DNA of 64,000 nt from an uncultured Acidimicrobiaceae bacterium (lineage in GTDB: Bacteria > Actinomycetota > Acidimicrobiia > Spongiisociales > ZC4RG35): the NCBI GenBank assembly GCA_964617995.1, contig CAZTXD010000002.1, forward strand, positions 4,862-68,861, given 5' to 3'. How positions within the stretch are numbered: the stretch's first letter is position 1; each line of letters starts with the position of its first letter. The notes beneath the pieces are model-generated. The model searched no databases and was not told the DNA's origin. It saw nothing but the letters and a program-made list of their open reading frames with translations. This document shows, in pieces, positions 699 through 4,806 of this stretch. The position numbers and the translations under genes are program-made.

Positions 699-2752
699 GC
701 CGCGAGCGCCGTGGTGGGGACGGCCAGGTCACCGAGGTGGTGACGGAGTTCCCGCGTCCGGTCCGGGAGATCTTCCACACCTGGATTCCCCTCTCCGATG
801 GTACCCGGCTGGCAGCCAGGATCTGGTTGCCCGAGGACGCCGAGGAGTCCCCCGTTCCGGGCGTGCTCGAGTACATCCCCTACCGAAAGAACGACCTCAC
901 GGCGACACGCGACGTACCCCACTACACCTACGTCGCCGGGCATGGCTACGCCTGCGTTCGCGTGGACCTGCGTGGAAGCGGAGAGTCGGAGGGGGTGTTG
1001 CGAGATGAGTATCTCCAACAAGAGCTGGACGACGGCGTGGAGGTGATCCGCTGGATCTCCGAGCAGTCATGGTGCTCGGGTCGGGTGGGGATGATCGGGA
1101 TCTCCTGGGGCGGGTTCAACGGCCTGCAGATCGCCGCCCTCCGACCGCCCCAGCTCGGTGCGGTCATCACCCTCTCTTCCACCGACGACCGCTATTCCGA
1201 CGATGTCCACCACATGGGAGGGTGTCTGCTCGGCGACAATCTCTCGTGGGCTTCGACGATGCTATCGCACAACAGCATCCCGCCCGATCCCCGAGTCGTG
1301 GGTGACGAATGGCGGAAAATGTGGCTGGAGCGCCTGGAGGGAAGCGGGTTGTGGTTGGCCGAGTGGCTTCGTCATCAGCGCCGGGATCCCTACTGGCGGC
1401 ACGGATCCGTGTGCGAGGACTACGAGGCCATCCGGTGTCCCGTCATGGTGGTCAGCGGCTGGGCCGACGGCTACTCCAACTCGGTGTTCCGACTCATGGA
1501 GAACCTGAGTGTTCCTCGTCGAGGTCTGATAGGCCCGTGGCGTCATCTATATCCCCATCTCGGCCGGCCCGGTCCCGCCGTTGGCTTTCTGCAGGAAGAA
1601 GTGCGGTGGTGGGACCAGTGGCTCAAGGATCTTGAGACTGGTGTCACAGACGAACCCATGCTCACGGTATGGATGCAGGACAGTGTGCCCCCCACCACCG
1701 ACTACGAGATACGCCCGGGACGATGGGTCGTGGAGGAGGTCTGGCCTGCCGTCGACATCGAAGAAGCGGAGTTCGGGCTGGCTCGAGGCCGGCTGGTGAT
1801 GGACGACACCCCCCATGACGACCAACCGCTGAGCATTCGTTCCCCCTTGAGCTGCGGTCTCTTCGCCGGCAAGTGGTGTTCCTACGGAGCGCCGCCCGAC
1901 CTGCCCCACGACCAGCGTGAGGATGACGGAGGGGCGCTCGTGTTCGAGACGGAGCCGCTCGAAGACGATATAGAGATGCTCGGTGCTCCCGTCGTGGAGC
2001 TGGAGGTGGAGGTCGACCGTCCGGTGGCGATGGTGGCCGTCCGGCTGTCGGACGTACTGCCCGACGACCGGGCCACCCGGGTGACGTACGGACTTCTCAA
2101 CCTCACCCACCGCAACAGCGACGAGCATCCCGAACGCCTGCAACCGGGAGAGCGATACGGGATCCGCGTCCGGATGAATGACATCGCCCAGAAGGTTCCC
2201 ACCGGGCACCGCCTTCGCCTGTCCGTTTCCACCGTGTACTGGCCGCTGGCCTGGCCTGCTCCCGAGCCCGTCAAACTCACCCTCTATCCGGAGTCGAGCC
2301 GCATGACTCTCCCACTCAGGACCGTCCGCGCCGAAGACGAGCGGGATTCGCCCTTTGGGCCGCCCGAGGCAGGACCACCACTGGAGAAGACCGTCGTGCG
2401 GATGCCCGAGCAGTCCTGGACCGTCGTGCGGGACCTCGTCCGGGATGAGTCGCGGCTGGAGGTGGTCAACGACGTGGGGGTGTACCGGATCGATGCCGTC
2501 GACCTGGAGATCGAGACCCGGGCGACGGAGACGTACAGCTTCCGGGCCGACGACCACGAGTCCCTGCGGGGGGAGACGTGGTGGATGCGTCGATTCAAGC
2601 GTGGGAGTTGGGAGGTTCGCACCGTTGCCCACACGGTCCTGAGCTCGGACGCCGAGGAGTTCCGGATCCAGGCCCAACTCGACGCATACGAGGGAGACGC
2701 CCGAATCCGTTCCATGAGCTGGGACGATCGCATCGAACGCGACCACGTTTGA
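653..2752 (+). CDS. CocE/NonD family hydrolase (S15 X-Pro dipeptidyl-peptidase-like alpha/beta hydrolase)
   Basis: 699-aa ORF; N-terminal 'IPLSDGTRLAARIWLPED', GISWGG nucleophile elbow, C-terminal beta-sandwich region typical of CocE/NonD family; true start probably GTG at 737/740 (VTEFPRP...) because 653 overlaps upstream gene. Confidence 0.8.
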   Translation: MPGDAALRVSADPPLSRERRGGDGQVTEVVTEFPRPVREIFHTWIPLSDGTRLAARIWLPEDAEESPVPGVLEYIPYRKNDLTATRDVPHYTYVAGHGYACVRVDLRGSGESEGVLRDEYLQQELDDGVEVIRWISEQSWCSGRVGMIGISWGGFNGLQIAALRPPQLGAVITLSSTDDRYSDDVHHMGGCLLGDNLSWASTMLSHNSIPPDPRVVGDEWRKMWLERLEGSGLWLAEWLRHQRRDPYWRHGSVCEDYEAIRCPVMVVSGWADGYSNSVFRLMENLSVPRRGLIGPWRHLYPHLGRPGPAVGFLQEEVRWWDQWLKDLETGVTDEPMLTVWMQDSVPPTTDYEIRPGRWVVEEVWPAVDIEEAEFGLARGRLVMDDTPHDDQPLSIRSPLSCGLFAGKWCSYGAPPDLPHDQREDDGGALVFETEPLEDDIEMLGAPVVELEVEVDRPVAMVAVRLSDVLPDDRATRVTYGLLNLTHRNSDEHPERLQPGERYGIRVRMNDIAQKVPTGHRLRLSVSTVYWPLAWPAPEPVKLTLYPESSRMTLPLRTVRAEDERDSPFGPPEAGPPLEKTVVRMPEQSWTVVRDLVRDESRLEVVNDVGVYRIDAVDLEIETRATETYSFRADDHESLRGETWWMRRFKRGSWEVRTVAHTVLSSDAEEFRIQAQLDAYEGDARIRSMSWDDRIERDHV

Positions 2753-2983
2753 TCGTCGGCAAGGAGCTAGACGAACCATCCTGCTGCAATCCGGAGTGGA
2801 CGGCGAGACCAGTCTCTGTGGTCTGCAATTGGCTGGGCTACACCATTGAGTCCGTCGACGGCTCGTGGACGATCGACCTCGAGTTCAGTAACATCGGAGA
2901 AGTCCCCAACCGCTGATCCAGCGGTCTCTCCAGTGGGATCGTTGACGCATGCATTCATCTCTGCTTTGACAGACTCGTTTGAG

Positions 2984-3076
2984 ATGGCCCAGATCCGCCA
3001 CAAGCTCGAACCCAACCCCAGCCGGCCGATCTACTTCATCACCGAACCCGGAATGGGCTACCGATTCCTCGGCTAG
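2984..3076 (+). pseudogene. Remnant of the C-terminus of a KdpE/OmpR-class response regulator (about 30 aa)
   Basis: Translation ...EMAQIRHKLEPNPSRPIYFITEPGMGYRFLG* matches the extreme C-terminal winged-helix end of KdpE-type regulators (..HLRQKLEQDPARPRHFITETGIGYRF..); upstream in-frame sequence shows no receiver domain, so only a fragment survives. Confidence 0.4.
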
Positions 3077-3090
3077 AGTCGAATGTCAAC

Positions 3091-3145
3091 GGCGATGGGG
3101 CTCGCCGAGAACCGCCTTGATGGCTGATGGCTCCTGAATCCTCAG
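3091..3145 (+). promoter_or_regulatory. Fluoride riboswitch (crcB RNA motif) upstream of crcB genes
   Basis: GGCGATGGGGCTCGCC GAGAACCGCC TTGAT GGCTGATGGCTCCT matches the conserved crcB-motif consensus (GGCGAUGG..UCGCC...AACCGCC...CUGAUGGCUCCU); loop GGGGCU can pair with downstream GGCUCC (pseudoknot); immediately precedes crcB ORF. Confidence 0.75.
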
Positions 3146-3149
3146 AGCC

Positions 3150-3572
3150 ATGCCACCACCCCAATCGCCAAAGCGCCGATCACCTCTCCTAGCCAGGTAC
3201 TGGCGTCCCTGGGCTCCCGTTCTAGGAGGTGGGCTCATCGGATCCGCGGCACGTACTGGAATCAGCCACTACCTCCCCGTTGCGCCAGGACGTTTCCCGG
3301 TAGCGACCCTGGTGGTGAACCTGACCGGCTCGCTGCTGCTCGGCTTTTATCTGGCGCGCAGAGAACAGACGGTCACCGCTCCCTGGTCACTCACATTTTG
3401 GGGTATAGGCGTTTTCGGGTCCTTCACCACGTTCTCGACCTTCAGTATCGAGGTCTTCCTCCTCCTCGACCACGGGAACGCCTTCACCGCTGCTGGATAC
3501 GTGACGGCCTCAATGGTGGGTGGCCTCATCCTTGCACTCGTGGGTCAACGTGTCGGGTCGGGAATCGGATGA
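3150..3572 (+). CDS. crcB: Fluoride ion channel CrcB/Fluc, subunit 1
   Basis: Small membrane protein with GxxxN..GSFTTFSTF motif; riboswitch directly upstream; start uncertain (ATG 3150 abuts riboswitch, an internal start near 3215 is possible). Confidence 0.8.
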   Translation: MPPPQSPKRRSPLLARYWRPWAPVLGGGLIGSAARTGISHYLPVAPGRFPVATLVVNLTGSLLLGFYLARREQTVTAPWSLTFWGIGVFGSFTTFSTFSIEVFLLLDHGNAFTAAGYVTASMVGGLILALVGQRVGSGIG

Positions 3573-3916
3573 TCGTTGTCGCTGCCCTGGCGGGCGCAGT
3601 TGGGGCCTTGTGTCGTTACATGATCTCAGGCGCCGTGCAGCAGCGCATCGATACAGGGCTCCCAGTCGGCACGTTGGCCGTCAATCTCTCCGGCGCTTTC
3701 CTCATTGGCATCGTTGCCGGGATCGACAGCCTCCAATCCAGCTCCACGGCCATAGCTGCGGGGTTTCTCGGCGGGTTCACCACCTTCTCCACCTGGATGA
3801 TCGAAACCGTGCGTCTCGGTATCCCACCGTTGAGAAGTAGACCTTTCATCAATCTCATCTCGACGCTCATAGCCGGTGCCGCGCTTGCCGGCGCCGGCTA
3901 CCACCTCACCCACTGA
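3569..3916 (+). CDS. crcB: Fluoride ion channel CrcB/Fluc, subunit 2
   Basis: ATG at 3569 overlaps stop of crcB-1 (ATGA); 116-aa membrane protein with GGFTTFSTW motif; paralogous to upstream gene (heterodimeric Fluc arrangement). Confidence 0.85.
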   Translation: MIVVAALAGAVGALCRYMISGAVQQRIDTGLPVGTLAVNLSGAFLIGIVAGIDSLQSSSTAIAAGFLGGFTTFSTWMIETVRLGIPPLRSRPFINLISTLIAGAALAGAGYHLTH

Positions 3917-3931
3917 CGAAGGGCCCAATAT

Positions 3932-4270
3932 ATGGACCAACACACCGACGCCAGACTCCTCCGAATCTTCATCGGCGAGTCCGACACCCACGACGGCCGT
4001 CCGCTCTATCAGGCCATTGTCGAGACCCTCCGCCGACAGGGACTCGCCGGTGCCACGGTCCTCCGTGGCATCGAAGGGTTCGGCAAGTCCAGTCGACTCC
4101 ACATCGCCCATATCCTGCGCCTGTCCGAAGACCTCCCCATCGTCATCGAATGCGTGGACACCGACGAGAAGATCAAAGGTGTCCTCCCCGCACTCGACAT
4201 CATGATCGGCGACGGTCTCGTCACCCTGGAAAGAGTGGAGGTGCGCGTCTATCGGGCCGACGGATCATGA
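3932..4270 (+). CDS. DUF190 (PII-like) domain protein commonly linked to crcB
   Basis: 112-aa soluble protein 'RLLRIFIGESDTHDGRPLYQAIVETLRRQGLAGATVLRGIEGFG' typical of DUF190/COG1993; 15 bp after crcB-2. Confidence 0.7.
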   Translation: MDQHTDARLLRIFIGESDTHDGRPLYQAIVETLRRQGLAGATVLRGIEGFGKSSRLHIAHILRLSEDLPIVIECVDTDEKIKGVLPALDIMIGDGLVTLERVEVRVYRADGS

Positions 4271-4806
4271 CGCTGGGGTACCGCTCCATCGCGCGTCCAT
4301 CGCGCGAGAGGGTGCGATGGGACGGTCAAGAACGCGAAATGACGCGAACGAGAAATGGTGTTTGAGCAGGCATCTCTCCCATTCTCGCTGGTCAGCGACC
4401 CCCCGGACTCGCTCATATGCACTCCGACCCTAGGCGAAACATCACCCGTTGTCCGTGCATATCCAGGGAGGATTGTTTCCCATCGTAAGGTCGGATCAAC
4501 AGGACCTGGGGCAAATCCCGCCCCCTATGACAGGGAACCCAGGCCCACCTGAGAGTACGATCGGTGGCCTTGCGTGTCAGATGAGGGTTGACATTGAGGA
4601 CGATAGATCGTGCCTATTGCGGCTCGAGCAATGCCTCGATCGCGTCGAGGAGCAAGTCGAGCCCGTACTCAAAGTCCTCGTTGGGTCCGGCGTCCGTGAC
4701 GAACACGCCGGCTTCGACGAGACGGACTAGGGCAGGATGGCGCCCATCGGCCACCACCTTCTGAAGCAATGGAACAGAGTCCCGACCGAAGGGGCCCACG
4801 TGATGC

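What the first reader, a model, noticed from the sequence alone, without database searches (positions are those of the whole stretch)
3091..4270. Fluoride riboswitch controlling a crcB-crcB-DUF190 operon
The 55-nt element at 3091-3145 matches the crcB RNA motif consensus closely (GGCGAUGG...UCGCC...AACCGCC...CUGAUGGCUCCU) and has a plausible pseudoknot pairing (GGGGCU with GGCUCC).

It is followed by two overlapping CrcB/Fluc genes (ATGA junction, implying a heterodimeric channel) and a DUF190 PII-like gene 15 bp later.

The first crcB ATG abuts the aptamer with no spacer. So either the expression platform overlaps the coding start, or the true start is an internal codon near 3215, just after an AGGAGG.
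Basis: partly seen in the sequence, partly recalled or inferred. Interest (0 to 1): 0.55.

Follow-up and report, generated by a model that had tools for sequence, protein, structure and literature searches.

The report
Fluoride riboswitch controlling a fluoride-channel operon
This is a genuine but ordinary fluoride-sensing RNA switch in front of a two-subunit fluoride export channel and a small conserved protein of unknown role; it most likely works by hiding or exposing the first gene's start codon.

Summary
Window 3082-3143 (+) matches the Rfam fluoride riboswitch RF01734 at 52.1 bits against a gathering score of 34. It is the only Rfam hit in the 64 kb. Downstream lie crcB1 (3150-3572), crcB2 (3569-3916, ATGA overlap) and a DUF190 gene (3932-4270, 15-nt gap), all well above their Pfam cut-offs.

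Two details need correcting. There are 14 nt between the aptamer's CUCCU and the ATG, not zero. The proposed internal start is impossible: no in-frame ATG/GTG/TTG exists before codon 55, and AGGAGG 3224-3229 is simply the codons for the conserved L-G-G of TM1.

An 11-bp helix (3121-3133 with 3145-3155) buries the whole AUG. It uses the same bases as the aptamer's P2 and pseudoknot 3' strands. The same design recurs in 11 related, probably Acidimicrobiia, leaders. There GAGCC-AUG-CC is conserved while the spacer around it is not.

No terminator pattern is present, so this is most likely a fluoride-induced translational ON switch. The two CrcB proteins have opposite charge bias, which fits an antiparallel heterodimer. 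This is a new member of a well-known kind, and interest is low.

The parts
3074..3079 (+). -10-like promoter hexamer TAGAGT (TANNNT). The predicted transcript start is a few nt before P1.
   Evidence: A TANNNT hexamer lies 7-12 nt upstream of P1 in all 13 related leaders, although the surrounding sequence cannot be aligned. No full sigma-70 consensus was found. This is inferred; no TSS was mapped.
3082..3143 (+). Fluoride riboswitch aptamer (RF01734). P1 is 3091-3094 with 3103-3106. P2 is 3114-3116 with 3122-3124. The pseudoknot is 3097-3102 with 3129-3134.
   Evidence: 52.1 bits against a gathering score of 34, E 1.4e-11, full-length model match. P1, P2 and pseudoknot pair in 99.4% of cells in 12 related leaders. 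Base identities were checked.
3121..3155 (+). Sequestor (OFF-state) hairpin. UGGC 3121-3124 pairs with GCCA 3152-3155 and AUGGCUC 3127-3133 pairs with GAGCCAU 3145-3151, with UG 3125-3126 bulged. It buries AUG 3150-3152 and shares bases with P2 and the pseudoknot 3' strand.
   Evidence: The hairpin is in the MFE and centroid folds. Its energy alone is -14.4 kcal/mol. With P1 it is -21.2, against -11.3 for P1+P2. Only 0.6% of 2823 background 18-mers pair as well with the 5' strand. The 10 core pairs are kept in 75-100% of 12 leaders, against 24-42% of all cells paired in the slid controls. Unpaired probability of the AUG bases rises from 0.02-0.20 to 0.73-0.97 when the aptamer bases are blocked.
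3150..3572 (+). crcB1 (140 aa), a Fluc subunit with a 23-residue Pro/Ser/Arg-rich N-terminal extension; predicted N-in topology.
   Evidence: PF02537 at 80.8 bits. Matches Fluc Ec2 5a43 at E 1.8e-10. K+R count is 8 on the N/L2/C side and 1 on the L1/L3 side. It is the only canonical in-frame start, and an in-frame UGA at 3135 closes the frame upstream.
3569..3916 (+). crcB2 (115 aa), the second Fluc subunit; its ATG overlaps the crcB1 stop (ATGA); predicted N-out topology.
   Evidence: PF02537 at 78.8 bits. Matches Fluc Bpe 5a40 at E 7.9e-6. K+R count is 0 on the N/L2/C side and 4 on the L1/L3 side.
3932..4270 (+). DUF190 / UPF0166 protein (112 aa), third gene of the operon; molecular role unknown. 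The 'PII-like fold' label is from memory.
   Evidence: PF02641 at 140 bits. Matches PH1503 (2dcl) at E 1.3e-29 and TM0021 (1o51) at 5.7e-21. It sits directly after crcB2 in all 15 clade loci and is 75-90% identical there.
4294..4324 (+). Possible end-of-operon hairpin without a U tract (weak).
   Evidence: Present in the centroid fold of 4262-4345, but z is only -1.3 and the terminator scan found nothing. It is listed for completeness and is not claimed as functional.

Best explanation
A fluoride-responsive translational ON switch drives a three-gene fluoride-resistance operon.

1. Transcription probably starts a few bases before P1, from a -10-like TAGAGT (3074-3079).
2. Without fluoride, the 3' half of the aptamer (UGGC..AUGGCUC, 3121-3133) pairs with GAGCCAU-GCCA (3145-3155). 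This hairpin buries the whole crcB1 start codon, and no usable Shine-Dalgarno sequence is present, so the 30S subunit cannot load.
3. With fluoride (bound as an F-/Mg2+ cluster, as established for this class), P2 (3114-3116 with 3122-3124) and the pseudoknot (3097-3102 with 3129-3134) form. They take the same bases away from the sequestor. The 14-nt spacer and the AUG become single-stranded and crcB1 is translated.
4. crcB2 follows, probably by translational coupling through the ATGA overlap. DUF190 follows 15 nt later.
5. CrcB1 (N-in) and CrcB2 (N-out) assemble into an antiparallel heterodimeric Fluc channel that exports fluoride. DUF190 is a co-regulated accessory of unknown molecular role.

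Shown here: aptamer membership, gene identities, the competing helix and its recurrence in relatives, the absence of a terminator pattern, and the opposite charge bias.
Inferred: fluoride binding, the direction of the switch, the transcript start, the coupling, and channel assembly.

Confidence by part: that this is a fluoride riboswitch operon, about 0.97; that control is translational through occlusion of the start codon, about 0.7.
For: - Aptamer: 52.1 bits against a gathering score of 34.
- Genes: PF02537 twice and PF02641, all above their cut-offs; PDB Fluc and UPF0166 homologues.
- No intrinsic-terminator pattern in 2700-4700.
- The sequestor hairpin is in the MFE and centroid folds. P1+sequestor is -21.2 kcal/mol against -11.3 for P1+P2. 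AUG unpaired probability is 0.02-0.20 free and 0.73-0.97 with the aptamer bases blocked.
- Only 0.6% of background 18-mers pair as well with the aptamer 3' half.
- Eleven related leaders carry RF01734 above the gathering score. They share a conserved island GAGCC-AUG-CC in an otherwise unconserved spacer of 14-25 nt.
- The 10 core pairs are kept in 75-100% of sequences. For the whole 13-pair helix, 79.5% of cells pair against 24-42% when the 3' partners are slid. C-to-U changes keep G-U pairs.
- L054 and L061 lengthen the helix to CUCCU/AGGAG. L059 uses a shifted register (UGGCUGAU/AUCAGCCA) that still ends at the AUG.
- Opposite K+R bias in all 13 loci counted: CrcB1 7-12 vs 0-3, CrcB2 0 vs 3-5.
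- Published work reports that Actinomycetota fluoride riboswitches are nearly all of the translational type and use sequestering hairpins (PMC12667848).
Against: - There is no statistical covariation for the sequestor. Its 5' strand is invariant because it is the aptamer, so shuffles equal the observed value. The only pair with changes on both sides (32-77) is unpaired in 7 of 12 sequences.
- Per-sequence duplex ranks are modest in several relatives (0.10-0.56).
- Whole-leader folding z-scores are weak: -1.6 for the window and about -1 for L054 and L061.
- Pseudoknot energy cannot be computed with the tools, so the ON/OFF balance is only estimated.
- How an mRNA with a leader but no Shine-Dalgarno recruits ribosomes in this organism is unknown.
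- Conservation of GAGCC could in principle reflect a short ribosome-contact motif rather than pairing.
- No experiment was done.
Confidence: 0.75

Rival explanations
1. The riboswitch acts mainly on transcription or mRNA fate (Rho-dependent termination or RNase access in the untranslated state). Start-codon occlusion would then be secondary.
For: Translational riboswitches are often coupled to Rho termination; the work is in the reference list of PMC12667848. The early crcB1 coding region is C-rich and poorly conserved, which could serve as a Rho loading site. This last point is inference only.
Against: No intrinsic-terminator pattern was found. The conserved competing helix ends exactly at the start codon. 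A Rho effect would still depend on the same translational switch.
Confidence: 0.12
2. One reading: the true crcB1 start is an internal codon after AGGAGG (3224-3229). The aptamer would then be separated from the real start by about 90 nt of leader.
For: AGGAGG exists at 3224-3229, and an in-frame ATC at 3237 lies 7 nt after it.
Against: No in-frame ATG/GTG/TTG occurs before codon 55. The Pfam CRCB match starts at residue 24, nt 3219, so a start at 3237 would remove the conserved GGxxG part of TM1. AGGAGG is the codons CTA GGA GGT and is replaced by GGGCGG, GCCGGA and the like in relatives. The reading frame from the conserved AUG stays open in all the relatives compared, despite length variation, and supplies the positive charges that fix N-in topology.
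Confidence: 0.02
3. The aptamer is a decayed or non-regulating relic, and the operon is constitutive.
For: Such states exist in the clade. L048/L049 carry a decayed aptamer below the gathering score, and L055/L056 have the same operon with no aptamer.
Against: The window's aptamer scores 52 bits and matches the capitalised (most conserved) consensus positions shown in the cmscan alignment, apart from one G-for-A change that keeps the pseudoknot pair. P1, P2 and the pseudoknot are intact, and so is the sequestor helix.
Confidence: 0.04

Closest known systems
Fluoride riboswitch (crcB RNA motif, Rfam RF01734), translational type. The examples named as controls in PMC12667848 are Pseudomonas syringae and Burkholderia pseudomallei.
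   Same: It has the same aptamer (P1, P2, pseudoknot, conserved nucleotides) and sits upstream of a fluoride exporter. It has no terminator. Its sequestering hairpin competes with the aptamer's 3' strand. Actinomycetota members are reported to be nearly all translational.
   Different: The hairpin buries the AUG itself (11 bp over -5 to +6) rather than a canonical Shine-Dalgarno sequence. Only a vestigial GAG lies 2 nt from the AUG. A more distant Acidimicrobiia relative (L007) does have GGAGG and sequesters SD and AUG together.
Heterodimeric Fluc (CrcB) fluoride channels encoded by tandem crcB genes, as in many Actinobacteria and Firmicutes. Homodimeric Fluc Ec2 and Bpe have solved structures (5a43, 5a40).
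   Same: Both are four-TM CRCB domains with the TM2 Asn (VNL), the TM1 Arg and the TM3 G(G/S)FTTFST motif. The two paralogs have opposite positive-inside bias, as expected for an antiparallel pair.
   Different: CrcB1 carries a 17-32-residue basic, Pro/Ser-rich N-terminal extension. CrcB2 has Trp in place of the second Phe of the TM3 FSTF motif in 12 of 13 loci, so the two pores may not be equivalent. That last point is inference.
DUF190 / UPF0166 (COG1993) proteins; solved structures PH1503 (2dcl) and TM0021 (1o51). The 'PII-like' description is from memory.
   Same: It is a full-length match (PF02641 at 140 bits; 2dcl at E 1.3e-29).
   Different: No function is assigned. Here it is a fixed third gene of a riboswitch-controlled crcB operon and is more conserved (75-90%) than the channel subunits. 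No paper in the searchable library links it functionally to fluoride.

Membership tests
Fluoride riboswitch RF01734 | Covariance-model score at or above Rfam's gathering score | tested here: met
   52.1 bits against 34, E 1.4e-11, model positions 1-64 of 64.
Fluoride riboswitch RF01734 | P1 and P2 helices plus a pseudoknot between the P1 loop and the 3' tail | tested here: met
   P1 is 3091-3094 with 3103-3106. P2 is 3114-3116 with 3122-3124. The pseudoknot is 3097-3102 with 3129-3134 (6 pairs, two of them G-U). 99.4% of cells pair across 12 relatives.
Fluoride riboswitch RF01734 | Position in the 5' leader of a fluoride-toxicity gene, on the same strand | tested here: met
   crcB1 starts 14 nt after the aptamer core. 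The same layout is seen in 11 relatives.
Fluoride riboswitch RF01734 | Selective fluoride binding and fluoride-dependent gene control | not testable with these tools
   This needs in-line probing and reporter assays with NaF.
Translational (sequestor-hairpin) expression platform | A helix that occludes the ribosome-binding region or start codon and is mutually exclusive with the ligand-bound aptamer | tested here: met
   Helix 3121-3133 with 3145-3155 shares 3122-3124 with P2 and 3129-3133 with the pseudoknot, and pairs all three bases of the AUG. It recurs in relatives.
Translational (sequestor-hairpin) expression platform | Covariation support for the sequestor helix | tested here: inconclusive
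   The 5' strand is invariant. The changes are one-sided G-C to G-U changes at three pairs of the helix (34-75, 41-70, 43-68). The only pair with changes on both sides is unpaired in 7 of 12 sequences. Shuffles reach the observed values.
Translational (sequestor-hairpin) expression platform | Absence of an intrinsic terminator between aptamer and gene | tested here: met
   No terminator-like site in 2700-4700. Only 14 nt separate the aptamer core from the AUG.
Fluc / CrcB fluoride channel (PF02537) | Pfam CRCB domain above the gathering score in both genes | tested here: met
   80.8 and 78.8 bits against 32.9. Both hit solved Fluc chains.
Fluc / CrcB fluoride channel (PF02537) | Antiparallel dimer; for a heterodimer, opposite topologies of the two subunits | tested here: met
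   K+R on the N/L2/C side against the L1/L3 side: CrcB1 8 vs 1 and CrcB2 0 vs 4 in the window. The sign is the same in all 13 loci counted. This is a positive-inside inference, not a structure.
Fluc / CrcB fluoride channel (PF02537) | Fluoride conductance and a resistance phenotype | not testable with these tools
   This needs liposome flux assays or a deletion phenotype.
DUF190 (PF02641) | Pfam domain above the gathering score and homology to solved UPF0166 structures | tested here: met
   140 bits against 23.4. 2dcl at E 1.3e-29 and 1o51 at 5.7e-21.

The most novel reading that the evidence does not exclude
In this clade (probably Acidimicrobiia) the fluoride riboswitch may control an mRNA that has a leader but no Shine-Dalgarno sequence, purely by occluding the AUG. 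If so, start-codon accessibility alone would gate initiation. The co-regulated DUF190 protein is more conserved than the channel itself and fixed as the third gene. It may be a dedicated partner of the heterodimeric Fluc channel, acting in gating, assembly or fluoride-stress signalling, rather than a bystander. The Phe-to-Trp change in CrcB2 may mark one of the two pores as non-equivalent.
Probability: 0.2. Interest if true: 0.5.

Novelty: new member of a known kind. Interest (0 to 1): 0.15.

Why it matters
The practical value is correct annotation.
- It fixes the crcB1 start at 3150.
- It shows that gene callers in related metagenomes wrongly begin crcB1 at the aptamer's own AUG, giving 'MAPETSRAMP...' N-termini.
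- It gives a clean, compact (about 70 nt) natural example of a fluoride switch that acts on the start codon without a Shine-Dalgarno sequence. That could be useful as a minimal translational fluoride sensor for high-GC hosts.

The one open biological question it touches is what DUF190 does. The tight, highly conserved linkage seen here makes that testable, but the linkage alone is not a discovery.

Tried and rejected
1. Internal start after AGGAGG. Rejected: there is no in-frame canonical start, the Pfam domain would be truncated, and AGGAGG is not conserved.

2. A second anti-aptamer pairing between the aptamer 5' strand GGCGAUGGGG (3091-3100) and the early coding sequence CCCCAAUCGCC (3159-3169). 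It is in the window's MFE fold and ranks at 0.027 there and 0.012 in L061. Across 12 leaders the median rank is 0.25, so it is not a conserved feature.

3. The aptamer's own AUG (3127) as a start or conserved uORF. Derived from the coordinates, its distance to the crcB1 AUG falls in frames 0, 1 and 2 in 3, 4 and 5 leaders. Read by eye from the leaders, two of the three in-frame cases hit a stop. Rejected.

4. Intrinsic terminator or full sigma-70 promoter patterns: none found.

5. Covariation proof of the sequestor: not obtainable, because the 5' strand is fixed by the aptamer.

6. Plasmid collection search with the locus: only weak partial hits to DUF190 and to a response regulator, so there is no close known replicon.

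7. Literature on a DUF190 function linked to fluoride or CrcB: nothing functional found. The original 2012 fluoride riboswitch paper could not be retrieved by PubMed id.

8. The one-genome-per-species collection (GTDB representatives) holds nothing closer than 47% identity to CrcB1. Closer relatives came only from metagenomes.

Full report
**1. Observation**

Scanning the whole 64-kb window against Rfam at gathering thresholds gives exactly one hit. It is RF01734 (fluoride riboswitch, crcB motif) at 3082-3143 on the + strand, with 52.1 bits against a gathering score of 34, E 1.4e-11, and the full model matched. The printed alignment matches the capitalised (most conserved) consensus positions, apart from one G-for-A change that keeps the pseudoknot pair.

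In window coordinates (bases verified):
- P1 is 3091-3094 with 3103-3106.
- P2 is 3114-3116 with 3122-3124.
- The pseudoknot is GGGGCU 3097-3102 with GGCUCC 3129-3134.

It is in the register I recall for the solved Thermotoga petrophila aptamer; that is from memory and was not checked here.

The three downstream ORFs are as described:
- crcB1 3150-3572: 140 aa, PF02537, 80.8 bits.
- crcB2 3569-3916: 115 aa, PF02537, 78.8 bits, with an ATGA overlap.
- DUF190 3932-4270: 112 aa, PF02641, 140 bits, after a 15-nt gap.

One detail is wrong: 14 nt (3136-3149) lie between the aptamer's CUCCU and the ATG.

**2. Where translation starts**

The frame of crcB1 is closed by UGA at 3135, inside the aptamer. 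ATG 3150 is the first start codon after it. The next in-frame ATG/GTG/TTG is GTG at codon 55.

The Pfam CRCB match already begins at residue 24. AGGAGG at 3224-3229 is the codons CTA GGA GGT of the conserved V-L-G-G-G of TM1. Relatives write the same motif as GGGCGG, GCCGGA, AGTGGG and so on. The only candidate after it is a non-canonical ATC at 3237, which would delete half of TM1. The internal-start option is therefore rejected.

All the relatives compared keep an open frame from the homologous AUG through a 17-32-codon extension that is variable and rich in Pro, Ser and Arg.

**3. Relatives**

The species-representative genome collection holds nothing closer than 47% identity. Metagenome contigs gave two loci at 62-63% (L027 and L028). 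The large protein collection gave 169 relatives at E <= 1e-10, up to 75% identical. The sources name several of them as Acidimicrobiia MAGs. The window is therefore probably from an Acidimicrobiia (Actinomycetota) genome, by inference.

Twelve look-ups returned loci L047-L061, and every one has crcB1, an overlapping crcB2, then DUF190. RF01734 is above the gathering score in L027, L028, L047, L050, L052, L054, L057, L058, L059, L060 and L061. L048/L049 carry a decayed aptamer, and L055/L056 carry none.

**4. Expression platform**

The unconstrained MFE and centroid folds of 3082-3200 contain a hairpin. UGGC 3121-3124 and AUGGCUC 3127-3133 pair with GAGCCAU 3145-3151 and GCCA 3152-3155. It pairs all three bases of the start codon. 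Its 5' strand is the 3' strand of P2 plus five of the six pseudoknot bases. The hairpin and the ligand-bound aptamer therefore cannot coexist.

| Structure or test | Value |
|---|---|
| Hairpin alone | -14.4 kcal/mol |
| P1 + hairpin | -21.2 kcal/mol |
| P1 + P2 | -11.3 kcal/mol |
| Pseudoknot as an isolated duplex | about -7.8 kcal/mol |

The OFF fold is therefore favoured unless the ligand adds stability. In the partition function the AUG bases are unpaired with probability 0.02-0.20. Forbidding the P2 and pseudoknot bases from other pairing, which mimics the bound state, raises this to 0.73-0.97. Only 0.6% of 2823 background 18-mers from the neighbourhood pair as well with the aptamer 3' half as the real -12..+6 segment does. 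No terminator-like site exists.

**5. Comparative support and its limits**

When the leaders are anchored on the AUG, they are unconserved except for an island GAGCC-AUG-CC at -5 to +5. The spacer after CUCCU varies from 14 to 25 nt and cannot be aligned.

On a 12-sequence alignment, the 10 core pairs of the sequestor are standard pairs in 75-100% of sequences. For the whole 13-pair helix, 79.5% of cells pair, against 24-42% when the 3' partners are slid by 1-3 columns. One-sided G-C to G-U changes at three pairs of the helix keep the pairing.

L054 and L061 lengthen the helix to CUCCU/AGGAG. L059 has lost the usual register but has an 8-bp UGGCUGAU/AUCAGCCA helix ending at the AUG, with z = -3.0. 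These variants argue for pairing rather than for a sequence motif.

True covariation cannot be shown, because the 5' strand is frozen by its aptamer role. Shuffles match the observed values. Several relatives have unremarkable duplex ranks. I therefore rate the platform as well supported but not proven.

A published high-throughput study states that Actinomycetota fluoride riboswitches are nearly all of the translational type and that such platforms are sequestering hairpins (PMC12667848). This design is expected for the phylum.

The one slightly unusual aspect is the lack of a usable Shine-Dalgarno sequence. The only SD-like bases (GAG) end 2 nt from the AUG, so the AUG itself is the main occluded element. 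A more distant Acidimicrobiia locus (L007) has a normal GGAGG that is sequestered together with the AUG.

**6. Promoter**

A TANNNT hexamer lies 7-12 nt upstream of P1 in all 13 leaders. In the window it is TAGAGT at 3074-3079. The flanks around it cannot be aligned. This suggests, by inference, that the transcript starts within a few bases of P1. The consensus scan, which requires both hexamers, finds nothing.

**7. The proteins**

Both CrcB paralogs align to solved Fluc channels (5a43, 5a40). They keep the TM1 Arg, the TM2 VNL Asn and the TM3 G-x-F-T-T-F-S-T motif.

| Subunit | K+R on N-terminus / loop 2 / C-terminus | K+R on loops 1 / 3 |
|---|---|---|
| CrcB1, window | 8 | 1 |
| CrcB2, window | 0 | 4 |
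| CrcB1, 13 loci | 7-12 | 0-3 |
| CrcB2, 13 loci | 0 | 3-5 |

The sign is the same in all 13 loci. By the positive-inside rule the two subunits insert in opposite orientations.

DUF190 matches the solved UPF0166 proteins PH1503 (E 1.3e-29) and TM0021. Its function is unknown, and I found no paper linking it functionally to fluoride.

**8. Verdict**

This is a genuine fluoride riboswitch operon of a well-known kind, from a lineage that has probably not been cultured. The contribution of this second look has four parts:
- confirmation of the riboswitch and the operon;
- a fixed start codon for crcB1;
- a specific, testable model of a translational ON switch that occludes the AUG;
- a few side observations, listed separately.

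A specialist would find nothing here surprising. Interest is low, and the novelty class is 'new member of a known kind'.

Noticed in passing
window 2984-3076 (+): Only the last ~30 codons of an OmpR-type response regulator survive (…QIRHKLEPNPSRPIYFITEPGMGYRFLG*). The Pfam Trans_reg_C match covers profile positions 50-77 only, at 20 bits, below the cut-off. The stretch is about 77% identical at nucleotide level to a Streptomyces response-regulator gene. It is a gene remnant. Its stop codon TAG 3074-3076 lies inside the riboswitch's -10-like TAGAGT.
   Followed up: partly
L048 1942-2000 and L049 (same sequence, two independent assemblies): The aptamer has decayed (…AACCGACTTGACGCCTGATCGCTCCT…) and falls below the Rfam gathering score. 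Its sequestor duplex is only -3.8 kcal/mol. The crcB-crcB-DUF190 operon behind it is intact, so this is probably a naturally constitutive variant.
   Followed up: partly
L055 and L056 (leaders 1900-2000): These loci have the same three-gene operon with no fluoride aptamer at all upstream. Within this clade the riboswitch has therefore been gained or lost.
   Followed up: no
window 3932-4270 and the DUF190 genes of L027, L028 and L047-L061: DUF190 is 75-90% identical in protein sequence across the clade, while CrcB1 is only 55-75% identical. It also sits next to crcB in a Lentilactobacillus locus (L016) and a Streptomyces locus (L018), but is absent from about 40 other crcB loci fetched. The accessory gene is under stronger constraint than the channel.
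   Followed up: partly
window 3785-3796 (CrcB2 residues 73-76) and homologues: CrcB2 reads F-S-T-W where CrcB1 and the solved homodimeric Fluc channels read F-S-T-F. Trp is kept in 12 of 13 loci, and L059 has Leu. From memory, these are the two Phe residues known as the Phe box. The two pores of the heterodimer may therefore not be equivalent.
   Followed up: no
L050 2001-2024; proteins P0005, P0006, P0007, P0010, P0015, P0022: Gene callers start crcB1 at the aptamer's own conserved AUG (CUGAUGGCUCCU), producing 'MAPETSRAMP…' N-termini. This is an annotation artefact: the riboswitch has been read as coding sequence.
   Followed up: yes
window 4271-4610: There is about 340 nt with no convincing ORF after DUF190. 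It begins with a direct repeat TCCATCGCGCG x2 and a hairpin at 4294-4324 without a U tract. The folding z-score is only -1.3, so its significance is unclear.
   Followed up: partly
window 3091-3100 and 3159-3169: The aptamer 5' strand GGCGAUGGGG is complementary to CCCCAAUCGCC in codons 4-7 of crcB1. The pairing is in the MFE fold and ranks at 0.027 against background. A similar match occurs in L061 (0.012) but not across the clade (median rank 0.25). It is either a lineage-specific reinforcement of the OFF state or chance.
   Followed up: yes
L002 2877-3045: A more distant Actinomycetes MAG has a fluoride aptamer (56.3 bits) about 100 nt upstream of its crcB frame. A GGAGG is followed by a TTG in a different frame. 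The contig coverage is about 1x, so a frameshift error is likely.
   Followed up: no
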